Of a stretch of DNA of 64,000 nucleotides, positions 44,314 through 47,507 are shown one piece after another; position 1 is the stretch's first letter, and the number at the start of each line of letters is the position of its first letter. Location of the stretch: assembly GCA_903894565.1 (NCBI GenBank), contig CAITQP010000006.1:32033-96032 (forward strand), in the 5' to 3' direction. A program made the translations under genes and the position numbers. This DNA comes from an uncultured bacterium (GTDB taxonomy: Bacteria > Patescibacteriota > Minisyncoccia > Phycocordibacterales > UBA9973). The notes below the pieces were generated by a model, which saw only the letters and a program-made list of their open reading frames with translations, was not told the DNA's origin and ran no database searches.

Positions 44314-45363
44314 ATGAATTACAACAAACGCATCAAAAATATACCACAAAATCTCTGGTCGCTCATCAACCAAATTGATGAATTAAAAGGTCGTTGGGTT
44401 GGTGGGGCGACGCTCAATCCTCAGGCACTCGGACGATTGAAGCGTTCAGTACTCGTTACTTCGACTGGGGCATCCACACGTATCGAGGGTGCGAAACTAT
44501 CCGACGAAGATATTGAGAAAATGATGCGCGGACTTTCGATGCAGAAATTCACCGATCGAGATAAACAGGAAGTGCAGGGATATTATGAACTTCTAGAAAA
44601 TGTTTTCAACTCATACGAAAAAATTCCTTTTTCAGAAAGCACTATCAAGCATTTACATCGAGAATTGTTGAAGTATGCGGAGAAAGACAAACTCCATCGT
44701 GGAGAATACAAAAAAATTGAAAACAAGGTTGAGATGATAGACGATGCCGGAAAATCTATCGGTGTGTTATTCGACACAACTCCCGCATGGCTCACGCCAA
44801 AAGAAATGCAAGAACTCGTGGAATGGACGCGTGAAGCAATCGGGCTAAAAGAAATTCATCCGCTTCTCATTATCGCCAATTTTCTCGTTGAGTTTCTAAA
44901 CATTCACCCGTTCCAAGATGGTAATGGTCGTCTTTCGAGAGTACTGACAAATTTGCTTCTCTTGCAGGCTGGCTATGAGTATGCGCCGTATGTTTCGCAT
45001 GAGAAATTGGTTGAAGATAACAAAGCTGATTACTATCTATCTCTCAGAAAAAGCCAGAAGACACTCAAGACCGAAAAACCATATATAACACCGTGGCTTG
45101 AATTCTTTTTCAGGGTTCTATTGACGCAAGCAAACCAAGCCATCGAATTATTATCAAAAGAAAATATTGATAAGCTTCTTTCTCCAAAACAACTTCTTGT
45201 ATGGAATTATCTCGAAAAAGTATCAGAAGCTACCCCAGGTGAAATTTCAAAAAATACTAAAGTTGCGCGACCGACCGTATCACAGGCACTCGACACACTT
45301 CTTCGTTTGAAAAAAGTAGAACGTATTGGACAAGGACGAACTACGAGATACAAGAAAAAGTAA
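44314..45363 (+). CDS. Fic-family protein (class II, N-terminal inhibitory helix) with a C-terminal winged HTH
   Basis: Fic motif HPFQDGNGRLSRVL, inhibitory motif STRIEG ([S/T]xxxE[G/N]), and a C-terminal wHTH. Confidence 0.8.
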   Translation: MNYNKRIKNIPQNLWSLINQIDELKGRWVGGATLNPQALGRLKRSVLVTSTGASTRIEGAKLSDEDIEKMMRGLSMQKFTDRDKQEVQGYYELLENVFNSYEKIPFSESTIKHLHRELLKYAEKDKLHRGEYKKIENKVEMIDDAGKSIGVLFDTTPAWLTPKEMQELVEWTREAIGLKEIHPLLIIANFLVEFLNIHPFQDGNGRLSRVLTNLLLLQAGYEYAPYVSHEKLVEDNKADYYLSLRKSQKTLKTEKPYITPWLEFFFRVLLTQANQAIELLSKENIDKLLSPKQLLVWNYLEKVSEATPGEISKNTKVARPTVSQALDTLLRLKKVERIGQGRTTRYKKK

Positions 45364-45374
45364 AAGGAACATGT

Positions 45375-47507
45375 ATGACGAATCAAGAAAAACTCGCTTT
45401 ATATCGTTCATTGTTTCGTGGTCGCGATGATGCATATCCGCGTCGATGGGAAAAGAACGGAAAGAGCGGGTGGACTCCCGCATATTCTTTCGACTGGAAC
45501 GAGTTTAACACGCATAGGGCGAGAGGTGGCTCAATAAAAGACTTCGAACATAAAACACTTCTGCCTGTGACAAATGAGATTTTGCTAAATCATCTTCTCG
45601 GAAAAGATACTGTAGGTATTTACCCGATACTTCAAGACAATACTTCGTATTTTATTGTAGCCGATTTTGATGAAGCCGATTGGAAAGCCGATGCAAAAAA
45701 ATTAGTTGACGTTTGTCTAAAACAAAACCTATCTGCATATTCAGAAATTTCACGCTCGGGAAATGGCGCTCATGTCTGGATATTTTTCGATGATAAATAT
45801 CCATGCTGGAAATCGCGATCAATTTTACTCGAACTTATTCGAAAAACATTCAGATATTCTGAATTTGCCAAGGAAATAAGTTTTGATCGGTTGTTCCCAA
45901 ACCAAGACACTATAACCGATGGCGGATTCGGAAACCTGATCGGGCTACCGCTTCAGGGCGAGCGTGTCATGCACGGCGCGTCTCTTTTTTGTGATTCCGA
46001 AAACTTTTTTCAATACCCTGATCAATGGGAATTTTTGAAGACTATTCATAAACATACAACAGAAGAACTCGACAATCTATATGATGAAATTTTCGGGCGC
46101 AAGGAATCACAAATTGAATCTACAGCTTTGAGTACATCCGACGTTCATATTACTGTTGATGGTTCGGTAAGAATCAAAAAGCAGGAACTTACATCGGGCA
46201 TAACTGCTTTCATAAAAGAAGAACTGAATATTTTCAATAAGGAATACGCGGCGAAAAAACGCCTTGGTAAATCAACATTCGGAACTGAAAAATATTTTAA
46301 TCTGGTGCAAGACCGCGAAGACGAGGTTTCGCTACCGCGAGGATTTTTGGAGAAACTCATTGTATATTTTGAATCTGAAAAAATTCCACATCAAATTATT
46401 GAAGAATACAAAAAACATGAAAGTATAAAATTCAAAAGCACTATTACTATCCACCCAGAACAAGAAAAAATACTCAAAACTATTGAAAACAAAACTAACG
46501 GCATAATAGTTTCTCCTCCTGGAAGTGGAAAGACGATTGTTGCGCTTGAGCTCGTGACAAAACTTAGATTACCGACGCTCATTCTCGTCAACCGAAACCA
46601 GTTGCTTTCGCAATGGGTCGAGCGAATTGATCAATTTTTTGGAATTCCAAAAATACAAATCGGAGTTATTTCAGGTACCAAGAAAAAAGTCGGCAAGCAG
46701 ATCACTGTCGCCTCATTGCAAACGCTTGTGCGTTACAAAAATCTCAAAGAAATTCTGGGTTCATTCGGAGTAATTATTATTGACGAATGCCATCACATAC
46801 CGGCAAAAACATATCGTGAACTTATTTGGTCATTCAAAAGCAAATATTGCTTCGGACTCACAGCAACCCATGAGCGAAAGCACGGAACGGAGAAAATAAG
46901 TGAGCTCATGATCGGGTCAGTCATAGCAGAAATGAAATCGGAAGATATGCCAGAGGTTAAAACATTTGAAATAACTATTCATCCGACAAAGATAACTCTG
47001 CCCTTTCGATATAAAACCGACCATTATGAAGCACTGGCGAAAGTCATATCGTTTGATTCTGCTCGTAATGAATTAGTCACCAAAGCAATTTTGAAAGAGG
47101 TTAAAGCAAAACGCAAAGTGCTTATACTTACCGAGCGCAAGGAGCATCTTGAAATACTTAACCTATACCTGCGTGGTGAAATTGAAACTATTTCCATTTC
47201 CGGTGACGATTCAGCACGTTCACGAAAACTTAAACTCGATCAGATTAAAGCAGGTAATTTTCGATTGTTGCTCGCAACAGGCCAATTACTTGGCGAAGGA
47301 TTTGATGTTCAAGGAATTGATACTATTGTGCTCGCATTTCCTTTTTCATTCGAGGGAAAACTCACTCAATATATTGGCAGACTGCGTGGCGAAGGAGTGA
47401 AGCATATTATCGATTTTCATGATGAAAAAGTAGAATTTCTTGATCGACAGTTTCAGAAAAGAAAAAGATTTTACAAAAATAAGCTTGGTATTGTCTTAAC
47501 CGAATAA
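45375..47507 (+). CDS. AEP-superfamily primase-polymerase (Prim-Pol) fused to an SF2 (DEAH-like) helicase
   Basis: Prim-Pol motifs ADFDEAD and SRSGNGAHVWIFF. Helicase Walker A SPPGSGKT, motif II IIIDECHH, motif VI QYIGRLRG. Confidence 0.75.
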   Translation: MTNQEKLALYRSLFRGRDDAYPRRWEKNGKSGWTPAYSFDWNEFNTHRARGGSIKDFEHKTLLPVTNEILLNHLLGKDTVGIYPILQDNTSYFIVADFDEADWKADAKKLVDVCLKQNLSAYSEISRSGNGAHVWIFFDDKYPCWKSRSILLELIRKTFRYSEFAKEISFDRLFPNQDTITDGGFGNLIGLPLQGERVMHGASLFCDSENFFQYPDQWEFLKTIHKHTTEELDNLYDEIFGRKESQIESTALSTSDVHITVDGSVRIKKQELTSGITAFIKEELNIFNKEYAAKKRLGKSTFGTEKYFNLVQDREDEVSLPRGFLEKLIVYFESEKIPHQIIEEYKKHESIKFKSTITIHPEQEKILKTIENKTNGIIVSPPGSGKTIVALELVTKLRLPTLILVNRNQLLSQWVERIDQFFGIPKIQIGVISGTKKKVGKQITVASLQTLVRYKNLKEILGSFGVIIIDECHHIPAKTYRELIWSFKSKYCFGLTATHERKHGTEKISELMIGSVIAEMKSEDMPEVKTFEITIHPTKITLPFRYKTDHYEALAKVISFDSARNELVTKAILKEVKAKRKVLILTERKEHLEILNLYLRGEIETISISGDDSARSRKLKLDQIKAGNFRLLLATGQLLGEGFDVQGIDTIVLAFPFSFEGKLTQYIGRLRGEGVKHIIDFHDEKVEFLDRQFQKRKRFYKNKLGIVLTE

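What the first reader, a model, noticed from the sequence alone, without database searches (positions are those of the whole stretch)
44314..47507. Class II Fic (with wHTH) coupled to a Prim-Pol::SF2-helicase fusion
The Fic protein has the intact HPFQDGNGR active site, the N-terminal inhibitory motif STRIEG and a C-terminal winged HTH. The next gene, 12 bp downstream, fuses an AEP primase-polymerase (ADFDEAD, SGNGAHVWIFF) to a DEAH-like helicase (SPPGSGKT, DECHH, QYIGRLRG). This may be the replication module of a small integrative element with a Fic toxin-like effector, or a two-gene conflict system. Prim-Pol plus helicase without other replication genes is unusual cargo.
Basis: partly seen in the sequence, partly recalled or inferred. 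Interest (0 to 1): 0.55.

Follow-up and report, generated by a model that had tools for sequence, protein, structure and literature searches.

The report
Fic plus IEE-like primase-helicase cassette
A small piece of imported DNA next to a tRNA gene carries two co-transcribed genes, a self-inhibited Fic protein-modifying enzyme and a distant relative of the E. coli "IS-excision enhancer" polymerase-helicase; both belong to known families used in conflicts with mobile DNA, and their pairing is real but optional.

Summary
Both ORFs, the 11-nt spacer and every quoted motif are present at the stated coordinates.

The interpretation needs revision. The Prim-Pol::helicase is a full-length homologue of E. 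coli IEE, the IS-excision enhancer (31% identity, E 7e-123). It matches Pfam AEP-TOTE at 268 bits, keeps all IEE catalytic residues, and has an XPB-like helicase half. It is not an orphan replication protein. Homologues are essentially absent from phages and show no small circular contigs. They sit in tight operons with Fic, SLFN/AlbA_2, RhuM, AbiEi/Eii, NYN or HipA.

The Fic is a class II, SoFic-like enzyme with a C-terminal wHTH.

Fic lies directly upstream in 20 of 81 homologue loci, about 60% of the CPR ones. In the reverse direction, only 7 of 61 close Fic relatives have the helicase downstream. The helicase is often pseudogenised while Fic stays intact. The link is therefore real but facultative.

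The pair forms a 3.4-kb cassette bounded by 105-nt direct repeats (tRNA-Arg 3' end plus terminator) with no recombinase inside. A sister genome has the cassette in swapped order. Fic-only cassettes and unrelated cargo at tRNA-Leu show the same repeat architecture, so the helicase is not needed for insertion.

No TPR/OB/TBP genes are present, so this is not a canonical TOTE system. Verdict: a new variant of known kinds, of moderate interest.

The parts
44074..44178 (.). Left direct repeat (att-like). It has a 40-nt core identical to the right copy, a decayed copy of the tRNA-Arg 3' end at about 44155-44178, and a minus-strand terminator-like hairpin at 44133-44150.
   Evidence: the repeat finder D2, 105 nt, 81% identity. 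The core 37-mer occurs exactly twice in the window against 0 expected. Alignment with the L002 copies. Terminator scan.
44254..44282 (+). Promoter-like site (TTGCCT-17-TATAAT) for the Fic/helicase operon. It lies inside the repeat-bounded unit.
   Evidence: Consensus scan, 10/12 match. The same TTGCC..TAATCT..TATAAT block directly follows the left repeat in other Fic cassettes. Homology with Fic-only loci starts at 44168-44247.
44314..45363 (+). Class II (SoFic-like) Fic AMP-transferase, 349 aa. Inhibitory motif STRIEG at aa 54-59 (nt 44473-44490). Active site HPFQDGNGR at aa 198-206 (nt 44905-44931). C-terminal wHTH at aa ~290-349 (nt 45181-45360).
   Evidence: (PDB 8uqu E 3e-32; SoFic 3eqx E 1.5e-6).
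45375..47507 (+). IEE-family AEP(PrimPol)::XPB-like SF2 helicase, 710 aa. AEP domain aa 5-234 (nt 45387-46076) with D97, D99, H133, D171. DRD-like linker domain at aa ~255-345. Helicase core aa 358-669 (nt 46446-47381) with K386, DECHH 470-474 and R669.
   Evidence: Pfam AEP-TOTE 268.6 bits. BLASTP against E. coli IEE: 31% identity, E 7e-123, colinear over aa 1-701. PDB XPB 2fwr/6p66 E 1.3e-24 and MpCAPP 7nqd E 5e-14. AF2 model pLDDT 74 with Foldseek top hits to archaeal XPB.
47513..47617 (.). Right direct repeat. It overlaps the 3' 23 nt of tRNA-Arg and contains that tRNA's terminator-like hairpin (47572-47589, minus strand). Its left arm (47509-47533) is an inverted, degenerate copy of the tRNA 3' end.
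   Evidence: D2, I1; fold z = -4.15.
47595..47667 (-). tRNA-Arg(TCT), the insertion target. Its 3' end faces the 3' end of the helicase gene, 88 nt away.
   Evidence: ARAGORN; Rfam tRNA 60.5 bits.
39500..44073 (+). Neighbouring accreted element. It contains iteron-like repeats (39625-40070), a large serine recombinase (40114-41454), a membrane protein (41483-42067) and three ORFs with no family match. It occupies the other slot of the same tRNA-Arg island.
   Evidence: Pfam Resolvase+Recombinase+Zn_ribbon_recom; PHROG integrase E 5.5e-60. The order of this element and the Fic cassette is swapped in sister genome L002.

Best explanation
Window 44074-47617 is a 3.4-kb accessory cassette inserted at the 3' end of tRNA-Arg(TCT). 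It is bounded by about 105-nt direct repeats made of the tRNA 3' end plus its terminator, and it contains no recombinase.

The cassette carries one operon, promoter-Fic-(11 nt)-helicase.
- Gene 1 is a class II, intramolecularly auto-inhibited Fic AMP-transferase with a C-terminal wHTH. It is SoFic-like.

Most likely both genes are anti-mobile-element (conflict) genes that are co-expressed but separable.
- The IEE-like enzyme would act on DNA intermediates of transposing or invading elements. By analogy, it would use Mn-dependent polymerisation, strand displacement or template switching, and microhomology-mediated end joining. These activities are shown biochemically for E. coli IEE and are inferred here from conserved catalytic residues.
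- Fic would act as a latent AMPylating toxin/effector and/or as a wHTH autoregulator of the operon. This is inferred.

What is shown: gene structure, homology, conserved but facultative adjacency, the repeat-bounded and independently positioned cassette, and absence from phages. What is inferred: the activities, the anti-MGE role, and co-regulation.
For: Homology to IEE:
- BLASTP to E. coli IEE gives E 7e-123, colinear over the full length.
- Both proteins hit PF22548.
- IEE catalytic residues D142/D144/H178/D216/K451/R735 (PMC9943667) correspond to D97/D99/H133/D171/K386/R669 here, with identical AEP spacings. All are invariant in 16 homologues.

Conflict-type context:
- In 81 homologue loci, the neighbours within 120 nt on the same strand are Fic (20 directly upstream), SLFN-AlbA_2/HATPase_c_4/wHTH (15), RhuM (6), AbiEi/Eii (4), Eco57I/MmeI methylases and HipA.
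- On annotated plasmids the contexts are NYN-helicase-WYL-type I RM, AbiEii-helicase, and helicase-RelE/ParE.
- There are 0 full-length hits in 50,697 phage records and 1 in 2.9 million IMG/VR contigs.

The pair is an operon: spacers are 2-12 nt in most Fic loci, and one promoter-like site lies upstream of Fic.

The genes are separable:
- Only 7 of 61 close Fic relatives have the helicase downstream, although it is their only recurrent neighbour.
- At the same tRNA-Arg(TCT) locus, L085 has Fic without the helicase.
- The helicase is split or truncated in L005, L007, L068, L086 and L102 while Fic is intact.

The cassette is mobile:
- The 105-nt repeats flank exactly the two genes.
- Sister genome L002 has the Fic cassette and the serine-recombinase element in swapped order between copies of the same repeat.
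- Repeats flank 12 of 50 helicase genes, against 2 of 102 independent control genes.
- 14 of 76 loci have a convergent tRNA within 1.2 kb downstream, against a background of 0.056 tRNA/kb.
Against: - No experiment bears on this protein, and 31% identity to IEE does not guarantee the same substrate or role.
- CPR genomes may carry few copy-out-paste-in IS elements. This was not tested.
- Tight operonic coupling to toxin-type partners across phyla could mean an obligate sensor-effector system rather than two separable modules.
- The close Fic subfamily is mostly found alone in varied contexts, so it could be a housekeeping regulator rather than a defence gene.
- The NCBIfam SoFic equivalog cut-off is far from met (47 bits against 550).
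- Neighbourhoods were analysed with my own crude ORF calls on at most 80 loci per scan. Those loci are the ones closest to the query.
Confidence: 0.55

Rival explanations
1. Obligate two-component defence system. The AEP-helicase senses or translocates on foreign DNA and then activates, or is targeted by, the Fic effector. Fic, AbiEii, RhuM, SLFN and NYN would be interchangeable effector modules of one system family.
For: Spacers of 2-16 nt, or overlaps, link the helicase to every partner family. All partners are toxin/effector-type and mostly carry an HTH. The helicase is the only recurrent neighbour of this Fic subfamily. Pairwise identities of Fic and helicase correlate (Pearson 0.46, Mantel p 2e-4).
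Against: About 89% of close Fic relatives lack the helicase. The helicase decays while Fic stays intact. The rank correlation of divergence is nil (Spearman 0.08), which indicates partner shuffling. Helicase-only repeat-bounded units exist (L032, L061). Fic carries its own intramolecular inhibitor, so it needs no partner to be held in check.
Confidence: 0.2
2. Minimal integrative replicon. The AEP-helicase is the Rep (primase plus helicase) of a 3.4-kb element that excises as a circle, replicates and reintegrates at tRNA genes. Fic is addiction or cargo.
For: att-like direct repeats at a tRNA 3' end enclose just the two genes. The cassette is positioned independently in L002. Two copies at 86% nt identity occur in one MAG. 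Serine or tyrosine recombinases are often nearby. Fused PrimPol-helicases are replicases in plasmids such as pRN1 (PMC11724360).
Against: Fic-only cassettes, and unrelated cargo at tRNA-Leu in this window, have the same repeat architecture without any helicase. None of 28 whole contigs is circular. The family is absent from phages and viral contigs. On plasmids it occurs only on 90-900-kb replicons and outside the replication regions. The characterised homologue IEE is an end-joining/IS-excision enzyme, not a replicase (PMC9943667). The helicase is XPB-like SF2, not a hexameric replicative SF3/SF4/SF6 type.
Confidence: 0.1
3. Unrelated neighbours with host functions. Fic-wHTH is a transcriptional or post-translational regulator, and the AEP-helicase is a host DNA-repair (MMEJ) enzyme. 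They merely share an insertion hotspot.
For: Fic occurs mostly alone. IEE-type enzymes have repair-like chemistry (PMC9943667). The tRNA-proximal sites in this genome accumulate assorted cargo.
Against: Adjacency recurs in 20 of about 33 CPR loci, down to 47% helicase identity, with 2-12-nt spacers. Distribution is patchy, and pseudogenisation, low GC (0.39 against 0.43-0.49) and repeat-bounded mobility are typical of accessory genes, not core repair genes.
Confidence: 0.12
4. Canonical TOTE (TPR-OB-TBP-Effector) conflict system, as the Pfam and PGAP name of the AEP domain suggests.
For: A PF22548 'AEP-TOTE' full-length match at 268.6 bits. PGAP names E. coli IEE and P0111 as TOTE AEP proteins.
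Against: No TPR-CSD or TBP gene was found among the ten ORFs scanned around the pair. None is a recurrent neighbour in 81 loci. Only L014 has a kinase-TPR neighbour. The TOTE definition was taken from PMC12458937; the primary review could not be read.
Confidence: 0.03

Closest known systems
E. coli O157:H7 IS-excision enhancer IEE (ECs1305/Z1568; 786 aa)
   Same: The architecture is the same and the alignment is colinear over the full length (31% identity, E 7e-123). Both belong to the same Pfam AEP-TOTE family. The catalytic Asp/His/Asp triad spacing is identical, and Walker A, DExH and the arginine finger are all present. Both sit in an integrated island near a tRNA/integrase.
   Different: The window protein lacks IEE's 44 N-terminal residues and about 20 linker residues. 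It is from a CPR bacterium. It is operonic with Fic, whereas IEE is preceded at 155 nt by a small 'inovirus Gp2-like' gene. No IS629/IS3 partner was demonstrated here, and activity is untested.
SoFic-type class II Fic proteins (Shewanella SoFic, PDB 3eqx/3zcn; PADLOC 'SoFic' single-gene defence system)
   Same: It has the HPFx[D/E]GN[G/K]R active site, an N-terminal (S/T)xxxE(G/N) inhibitory motif and a C-terminal wHTH. The PADLOC SoFic HMM matches at E 7.7e-43 over nearly the whole protein.
   Different: Direct similarity to SoFic itself is weak (E 1.5e-6 over aa 168-267). The NCBIfam equivalog score is 47 against a cut-off of 550. The closest solved structure is 8uqu, a 'Fido domain protein' (E 3e-32). 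Here the gene is followed by an IEE-like gene.
TOTE conflict systems (TPR, OB, TBP, Effector; Aravind, Iyer & Burroughs 2022, as cited in PMC12458937)
   Same: The AEP domain belongs to the Pfam family named after these systems.
   Different: None of the eponymous TPR-OB or TBP components is at this locus or recurrent in 81 related loci.
CRISPR-associated Prim-Pol (MpCAPP, PDB 7nqd/7nqf) and archaeal XPB/Rad25 (2fwr, 5tnu, 6p4o)
   Same: These are the nearest solved structures for the two halves: AEP E 5e-14, and helicase E 1e-24 with Foldseek E 4e-23 over about 480 columns including a DRD-like N-domain. The PADLOC Cas-associated PrimPol HMM scores 253 bits.
   Different: There is no CRISPR array in the 64-kb window, no Cas-system components were called among the seven genes scanned (weak wHTH-level Csa3/CasR hits on the Fic C-terminus only), and no Bax1-like nuclease partner. 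The two modules are fused into one polypeptide.
tRNA-targeting genomic islands / accreted cis-mobilisable cassettes
   Same: Direct repeats made of the tRNA 3' end plus downstream sequence, tandem accretion with another element, and lower GC.
   Different: There is no integrase inside the repeat-bounded unit. The only nearby recombinase is a large serine recombinase, a type that is not expected to create about 100-nt repeats (own knowledge). Units can be as small as a single gene.

Membership tests
IEE / Z1568-like AEP-helicase family (Pfam PF22548 AEP-TOTE + SF2 helicase) | N-terminal AEP domain matching the family model above the curated cut-off | tested here: met
   PF22548 scores 268.6 bits against a cut-off of 27, model positions 1-229 of 230. 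IEE itself scores 329 bits.
IEE / Z1568-like AEP-helicase family (Pfam PF22548 AEP-TOTE + SF2 helicase) | AEP catalytic residues (motif A DxD, motif B sxH, motif C hD) at the positions mutated or assigned in IEE | tested here: met
   D97, D99, H133 and D171 align with IEE D142, D144, H178 and D216. They are invariant in 16 homologues.
IEE / Z1568-like AEP-helicase family (Pfam PF22548 AEP-TOTE + SF2 helicase) | C-terminal SF2 helicase fused in the same polypeptide, with motif I Lys, DExH and the motif VI Arg finger, colinear with IEE | tested here: met
   K386, DECHH 470-474 and R669 align with IEE K451 and R735. The BLASTP alignment is colinear over aa 1-701 against IEE 45-771.
IEE / Z1568-like AEP-helicase family (Pfam PF22548 AEP-TOTE + SF2 helicase) | Transposase-dependent enhancement of IS3/IS30-type IS excision; Mn2+-dependent polymerase and MMEJ activity | not testable with these tools
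   These are biochemical and genetic properties reported for E. coli IEE only (PMC9943667; 10.1101/2023.06.07.543989).
IEE / Z1568-like AEP-helicase family (Pfam PF22548 AEP-TOTE + SF2 helicase) | Co-occurrence with copy-out-paste-in IS elements in the genome | not tested
   Only 64 kb of the genome is available, and no systematic transposase scan was done.
Class II Fic (SoFic-like) | Fic active-site motif HxFx[D/E]GN[G/K]R | tested here: met
   HPFQDGNGR at aa 198-206. Pfam Fic scores 64.4 bits.
Class II Fic (SoFic-like) | Inhibitory motif (S/T)xxxE(G/N) in the same polypeptide, N-terminal to the Fic core | tested here: met
   STRIEG at aa 54-59, upstream of the Fic core at 105-216. It is invariant in 21 homologues. 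The class definition is from my own knowledge (Engel et al. 2012).
Class II Fic (SoFic-like) | C-terminal winged helix-turn-helix | tested here: met
   In the AF2 model, residues 290-349 have pLDDT 79-90 with H291-302, H308-315, H319-331, E335-338 and E345-348. Several sub-threshold wHTH HMM hits fall in the same stretch. The rest of the model is low-confidence.
Class II Fic (SoFic-like) | Equivalog-level identity with SoFic (NCBIfam NF046030 cut-off) | tested here: not met
   47 bits against a cut-off of 550. It is family-level similar (PADLOC SoFic E 7.7e-43) but not an orthologue.
Class II Fic (SoFic-like) | AMPylation activity / anti-phage phenotype | not testable with these tools
   This needs biochemistry or phage challenge.
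TOTE conflict system | TPR-OB(CSD) protein and TBP-domain protein encoded with the effector | tested here: not met
   No such domains were found in the ten ORFs around the pair. None appeared among the recurrent or operonic neighbours of 81 homologue loci.
CRISPR-associated Prim-Pol (CAPP) | Genomic association with cas genes or a CRISPR array | tested here: not met
   There is no CRISPR-like array in the 64-kb window. The PADLOC scan of seven genes (the pair and the five upstream ORFs) called no Cas-system component: the helicase matched only the Cas-associated PrimPol and DinG helicase models at domain level, and the Fic C-terminal wHTH gave weak Csa3, CasR and CARF hits.
Autonomous integrative element (tRNA-targeting island) | att-like direct repeats, one overlapping the tRNA 3' end | tested here: met
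   44074-44178 and 47513-47617 at 81% identity. The right copy overlaps tRNA-Arg by 23 nt.
Autonomous integrative element (tRNA-targeting island) | Own integrase/recombinase within the repeat-bounded unit | tested here: not met
   Only Fic and the helicase lie between the repeats. The same holds for 13 other repeat-bounded units.

The most novel reading that the evidence does not exclude
IEE-family AEP-XPB helicases would be the conserved core of a widespread, so far unvalidated, modular anti-mobile-element immune system. The helicase-polymerase would detect or process replication or transposition intermediates. An operonically coupled, interchangeable toxin (Fic in CPR bacteria, AbiEii, RhuM, SLFN/AlbA_2, NYN or HipA elsewhere) would deliver the abortive or regulatory output. 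Under this reading, IS excision in E. coli would be one manifestation of a general defence function.
Probability: 0.25. Interest if true: 0.7.

Novelty: new variant of a known kind. Interest (0 to 1): 0.45.

Why it matters
IEE is present in a third of E. coli genomes and shapes IS load and deletions in EHEC, yet its natural role is debated. This analysis shows three things about its family. It extends to the reduced genomes of CPR/Patescibacteria. It is excluded from phages. It is repeatedly wired into operons with toxin-type genes (Fic, AbiE, RhuM, Schlafen-like, NYN). Together these give a concrete, testable hypothesis that IEE-like enzymes are part of prokaryotic immunity.

The analysis also documents very small cassettes, of one to three genes, that are bounded by duplicated tRNA-3'-end/terminator sequence and carry no recombinase. 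This may be a common route of accessory-gene gain in CPR genomes, and its mechanism is unknown.

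Tried and rejected
- TOTE: I looked for TPR/OB/TBP neighbours and found none. The primary TOTE review (PMID 35609893) is not held, so the definition comes from PMC12458937.
- Replicon hypothesis: I found no terminal overlaps in 28 whole contigs, one IMG/VR hit and no full-length phage hits. Plasmid hits are all on large replicons and outside the replication regions.
- Empty-site search: an exact or degenerate search for the 39-nt repeat core in metagenome contigs gave 0 hits. Evidence for independent insertion therefore rests on L002 and L085.
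- Element-borne terminal repeats: repeats from 20 loci share no similarity with each other, so they are derived from the target or host.
- Integron attC idea: I considered it because of the palindromic repeat. I rejected it because the palindrome arm is simply the tRNA 3' end and its terminator and no integron integrase is present.
- Rfam: nothing but the two tRNAs between 39300 and 48000.
- Fic structure prediction: the alignment was too shallow, giving a poor model (pLDDT 50). I used only its confident C-terminal wHTH and ran no fold search on it.
- Co-phylogeny: the Pearson/Mantel test is significant but the rank correlation is nil, so it is inconclusive for strict co-evolution.
- Literature: searches for a described Fic + AEP-helicase pair found none. 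That is absence within the held library only.

Full report
**1. Observation**

One is at 44314..45363 (349 aa) and the other at 45375..47507 (710 aa), both on the + strand. They are separated by the 11-nt spacer AAGGAACATGT. Every quoted motif is present:
- Fic: STRIEG (aa 54-59) and HPFQDGNGR (aa 198-206).
- Second protein: ADFDEAD (96-102), SGNGAHVWIFF (128-138), SPPGSGKT (380-387), DECHH (470-474) and QYIGRLRG (665-672).

Pfam gives Fic (64 bits) for the first gene. For the second it gives AEP-TOTE PF22548 (268.6 bits over the whole model), ResIII (108.6 bits) and Helicase_C.

The C-terminal wHTH of Fic is only sub-threshold by HMM. It is nevertheless the one confidently modelled part of an otherwise poor AlphaFold model. 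Residues 290-349 have pLDDT 79-90 and helix-helix-helix-strand-strand topology.

**2. What the second gene is**

The AEP half is nearest to the CRISPR-associated Prim-Pol MpCAPP among solved structures (7nqd, E 5e-14). The helicase half is nearest to archaeal XPB/Rad25 (2fwr/6p66, E 1.3e-24). An AF2 model (pLDDT 74) gives archaeal XPB as the top Foldseek hits. About 480 columns align, which covers a DRD-like domain plus both RecA lobes.

More than 7,900 database proteins share the ~710-aa architecture. They come mostly from Patescibacteria, Bacteroidota and Ignavibacteria.

A literature search led to the E. coli O157 IS-excision enhancer IEE, described as a Z1568-like AEP fused to an SF2 helicase (PMC9943667). 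I retrieved the E. coli gene through an Aeromonas homologue. It aligns colinearly with the window protein at 31% identity, E 7e-123, over aa 1-701 against IEE 45-771. It also hits PF22548, at 329 bits.

The IEE residues assigned or mutated in that paper are D142, D144, H178, D216, K451 and R735. They correspond to D97, D99, H133, D171, K386 and R669 here. All are invariant in my 16-sequence alignment.

IEE has the following reported properties (PMC9943667; 10.1101/2023.06.07.543989):
- It is a Mn2+-dependent, error-prone polymerase.
- It has microhomology-mediated end-joining activity that needs both domains.
- It promotes transposase-dependent excision of copy-out-paste-in IS elements.

PGAP names IEE a 'TOTE conflict system AEP domain-containing protein'. 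TOTE stands for TPR-OB-TBP-Effector (PMC12458937). No TPR/OB/TBP gene is near this locus, and none recurs near homologues.

**3. What the first gene is**

It is a class II Fic: the inhibitory helix motif lies N-terminal to the core in the same chain. It is similar over its whole length to the PADLOC SoFic defence model (E 7.7e-43) and to PDB 8uqu (E 3e-32). It is not an NCBIfam SoFic equivalog (47 bits against 550).

**4. Is the pairing meaningful?**

I scanned one genome per species and kept the best 80 loci, at 42-84% identity. I called ORFs myself and clustered the neighbours.
- Fic is the commonest neighbour. It sits directly upstream on the same strand in 20 of 81 loci. In four of these a small ORF lies between Fic and the helicase.
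- That is about 20 of the roughly 33 loci labelled as CPR lineages.
- The adjacency holds down to 47% helicase identity, with spacers of 2-12 nt in most of these loci.

Elsewhere the operonic partner differs:
- SLFN-AlbA_2/HATPase_c_4/wHTH, 15 loci, downstream.
- RhuM, 6 loci.
- AbiEi/AbiEii, 4 loci plus an Aliarcobacter plasmid.
- NYN+OST-HTH, on an Aeromonas plasmid next to WYL and a type I RM system.
- HipA, and Eco57I/MmeI methylases.

From my own knowledge (Makarova et al. 2011), these are the genes typically embedded in type I RM operons and defence islands.

The reverse test tells a different story:
- Of four Fic homologues at 86-87% identity on long contigs, one is followed by a split helicase plus RecQ, and three are not followed by a helicase.
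- Of 61 metagenomic loci with a Fic at 56-85% identity and enough downstream sequence, only 7 have the helicase. It is nevertheless the only recurrent neighbour of this Fic subfamily.
- At the syntenic tRNA-Arg(TCT)/tRNA-Val locus of a Pacebacteria genome, Fic is present without the helicase.
- The helicase is split or truncated in L005, L007, L068, L086 and L102 while Fic is intact.
- Pairwise identities of the two proteins correlate by Pearson/Mantel (0.46, p 2e-4) but not by rank (0.08).

The association is therefore real and operonic, but facultative and reshuffled.

**5. The cassette**

A 105-nt direct repeat (81% identity, with a 40-nt identical core) lies at 44074-44178 and 47513-47617. 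It brackets exactly the two genes. The right copy overlaps the last 23 nt of tRNA-Arg(TCT) (47595-47667, minus strand). The core is that tRNA's terminator-like hairpin. The left copy ends in a decayed tRNA 3' end.

In the closest genome (L002, Nomurabacteria; helicase 84% and Fic 93% identical) the same repeat occurs twice at the same tRNA-Arg/tRNA-Val locus, but the two modules are in swapped order:
- L002: Fic-helicase-RecQ | repeat | serine-recombinase element | repeat | tRNA.
- Window: serine-recombinase element | repeat | Fic-helicase | repeat | tRNA.

The cassette is therefore an independently placed unit.

Across loci, repeats of 23-168 nt flank the helicase, with or without a partner. 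No unit contains a recombinase. In a matched test, 12 of 50 helicase genes had such repeats. Among control genes 5 of 105 did, and 3 of those 5 are partner genes inside the same cassettes, leaving 2 of 102 independent controls.

A convergent tRNA lies within 1.2 kb downstream in 14 of 76 loci. The background is 0.056 tRNA per kb, and only one tRNA was found in the other orientation.

Two cassette copies at 86% nt identity, each ending at the repeat, occur in one MAG. This depends on the binning being correct.

Large serine recombinases are nearby in the window and in L002, L007, L011, L024 and L034. A tyrosine integrase sits between tRNA-Asn and the helicase in L049.

**6. Why the helicase is probably not the element's replicase**

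- Fic-only units are bounded in the same way. Examples are L107 (86 nt), L128 (124 nt), L135 (64), L166 (55) and L152 (42), and about 20 of 70 loci overall. The left repeat abuts the conserved Fic promoter block.
- Repeats from different loci are unrelated in sequence. They are duplicated host sequence, such as a tRNA 3' end plus terminator in L166.
- In this very window, the 3' end and terminator of tRNA-Leu(GAG) are repeated three times (50035-50077, 51229-51271, 55024-55066). They bound two low-GC cassettes with unrelated cargo: two ORFs with no family match, a TrmB-type regulator and a radical-SAM/B12 protein.
- No circular contigs were found and there are essentially no viral copies. There are no full-length phage homologues.
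- Plasmid homologues occur only on large replicons, inside defence-type neighbourhoods.
- The characterised relative, IEE, is not a replicase.

How these small recombinase-free cassettes are inserted remains unexplained. Candidates are trans-acting integrases, accretion followed by decay, or a repair-type mechanism.

**7. Mechanism proposed**

One promoter (44254-44282) drives both genes.

By homology with IEE, the AEP-XPB protein would load on or translocate along DNA. It would use its Mn-dependent polymerase for strand displacement, template switching and microhomology joining on intermediates of transposing or invading DNA. This is inferred.

Fic is a latent AMP-transferase. It is held off by Glu58 of its own inhibitory helix, and its wHTH probably binds DNA, perhaps its own promoter. 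This is also inferred.

They are most likely two co-expressed but separable conflict modules (confidence 0.55). An obligate sensor-effector system is the main rival (0.2). A minimal replicon (0.1), unrelated host functions (0.12) and canonical TOTE (0.03) are less likely.

**8. Novelty**

Both genes belong to known families, and the fusion is already a Pfam family and a PGAP product name. In the library I could search, three things are not described:
- The CPR-centred Fic-IEE-like operon.
- The wider pattern of toxin-type operonic partners for IEE homologues.
- The recombinase-free, tRNA/terminator-repeat-bounded mini-cassettes.

I rate it a new variant of a known kind, with interest 0.45.

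**Caveats**

- Neighbourhood statistics rest on my own simple ORF calls.
- Each scan returned at most 80 loci, and these are the ones closest to the query.
- MAG binning could be wrong.
- The TOTE definition comes from a secondary source.

Noticed in passing
window 49954-55066: The last bases of tRNA-Leu(GAG) plus its terminator hairpin are repeated three times (50035-50077, 51229-51271, 55024-55066). The repeats bound two low-GC (0.39) cassettes with unrelated cargo: ORFs 50116-51093 and 51309-51962 with no family match, a TrmB-type regulator at 52234-53049 (-), and a radical-SAM/B12-binding protein at 53194-54951. This is the same recombinase-free, tRNA-end/terminator-repeat architecture as the Fic cassette.
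   Followed up: partly
L107, L128, L132, L135, L152, L166, L121, L118 (metagenome loci): Fic-only units of about 1.3-2 kb are tightly bounded by 36-124-nt direct repeats that differ in sequence from locus to locus. The left repeat abuts a conserved Fic promoter block. The insertion mechanism is unknown.
   Followed up: partly
window 39625-40070: Iteron-like direct and inverted repeats lie just upstream of the large serine recombinase gene. They include a 57-60-nt unit present three times, and AAATG(N)ACA motifs such as AAATGAGACAAATGAGACAC with its inverted copy. They may be recombinase or regulator binding sites, or an origin.
   Followed up: no
window 28247-28641 vs 40408-40802: A second large-serine-recombinase paralogue (about 73% nt identity) lies 12 kb upstream. 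A tRNA-Ser(TGA) sits at 31291-31380. This may be another island.
   Followed up: no
window 47509-47533 vs 47599-47623 (and 44077-44103): The left arm of each direct repeat is an inverted, degenerate copy of the tRNA-Arg 3' end. In the right copy this gives a palindrome with 25-nt arms (ssDNA fold z = -4.15). In L002, C-to-T changes in the arms keep G-T/G-U pairing. The significance is unknown.
   Followed up: partly
L002 5295-7241; L086 10188-11999; L004 3315-4900: A RecQ-family helicase (with HRDC and HTH_40) is a recurrent third gene directly downstream of the Fic-helicase pair, before the repeat or tRNA.
   Followed up: no
L005, L006, L007, L013 (+1, opposite strand); L085 8052-8804: A small SWIM zinc-finger protein is repeatedly encoded between the helicase and the tRNA. 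In L085 it lies directly after Fic where the helicase is missing. It is absent from the window.
   Followed up: no
L021, L025, L027 (between Fic and helicase): A conserved Cys-rich ORF of 85-93 aa with no Pfam match is inserted between Fic and the helicase in a sub-clade.
   Followed up: no
L090 8869-11231 (E. coli EDL933 NZ_CP008957.1): In this EDL933 assembly the iee gene is annotated as a frameshifted pseudogene, although IEE from this strain was the protein purified in PMC9943667. This is probably an assembly or annotation artefact. The gene is named only by its TOTE domain, not as IEE.
   Followed up: no
window 6042-6407: There are three tandem-like copies (80-85% identity) of a 96-nt unit spaced 123-147 nt apart. 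This is presumably a repeated protein segment.
   Followed up: no
window 37355-37427 / ORF 37283-38389: A Lys/Glu-rich low-complexity ORF of 368 aa contains A/G-rich tandem repeats and has no family match.
   Followed up: no
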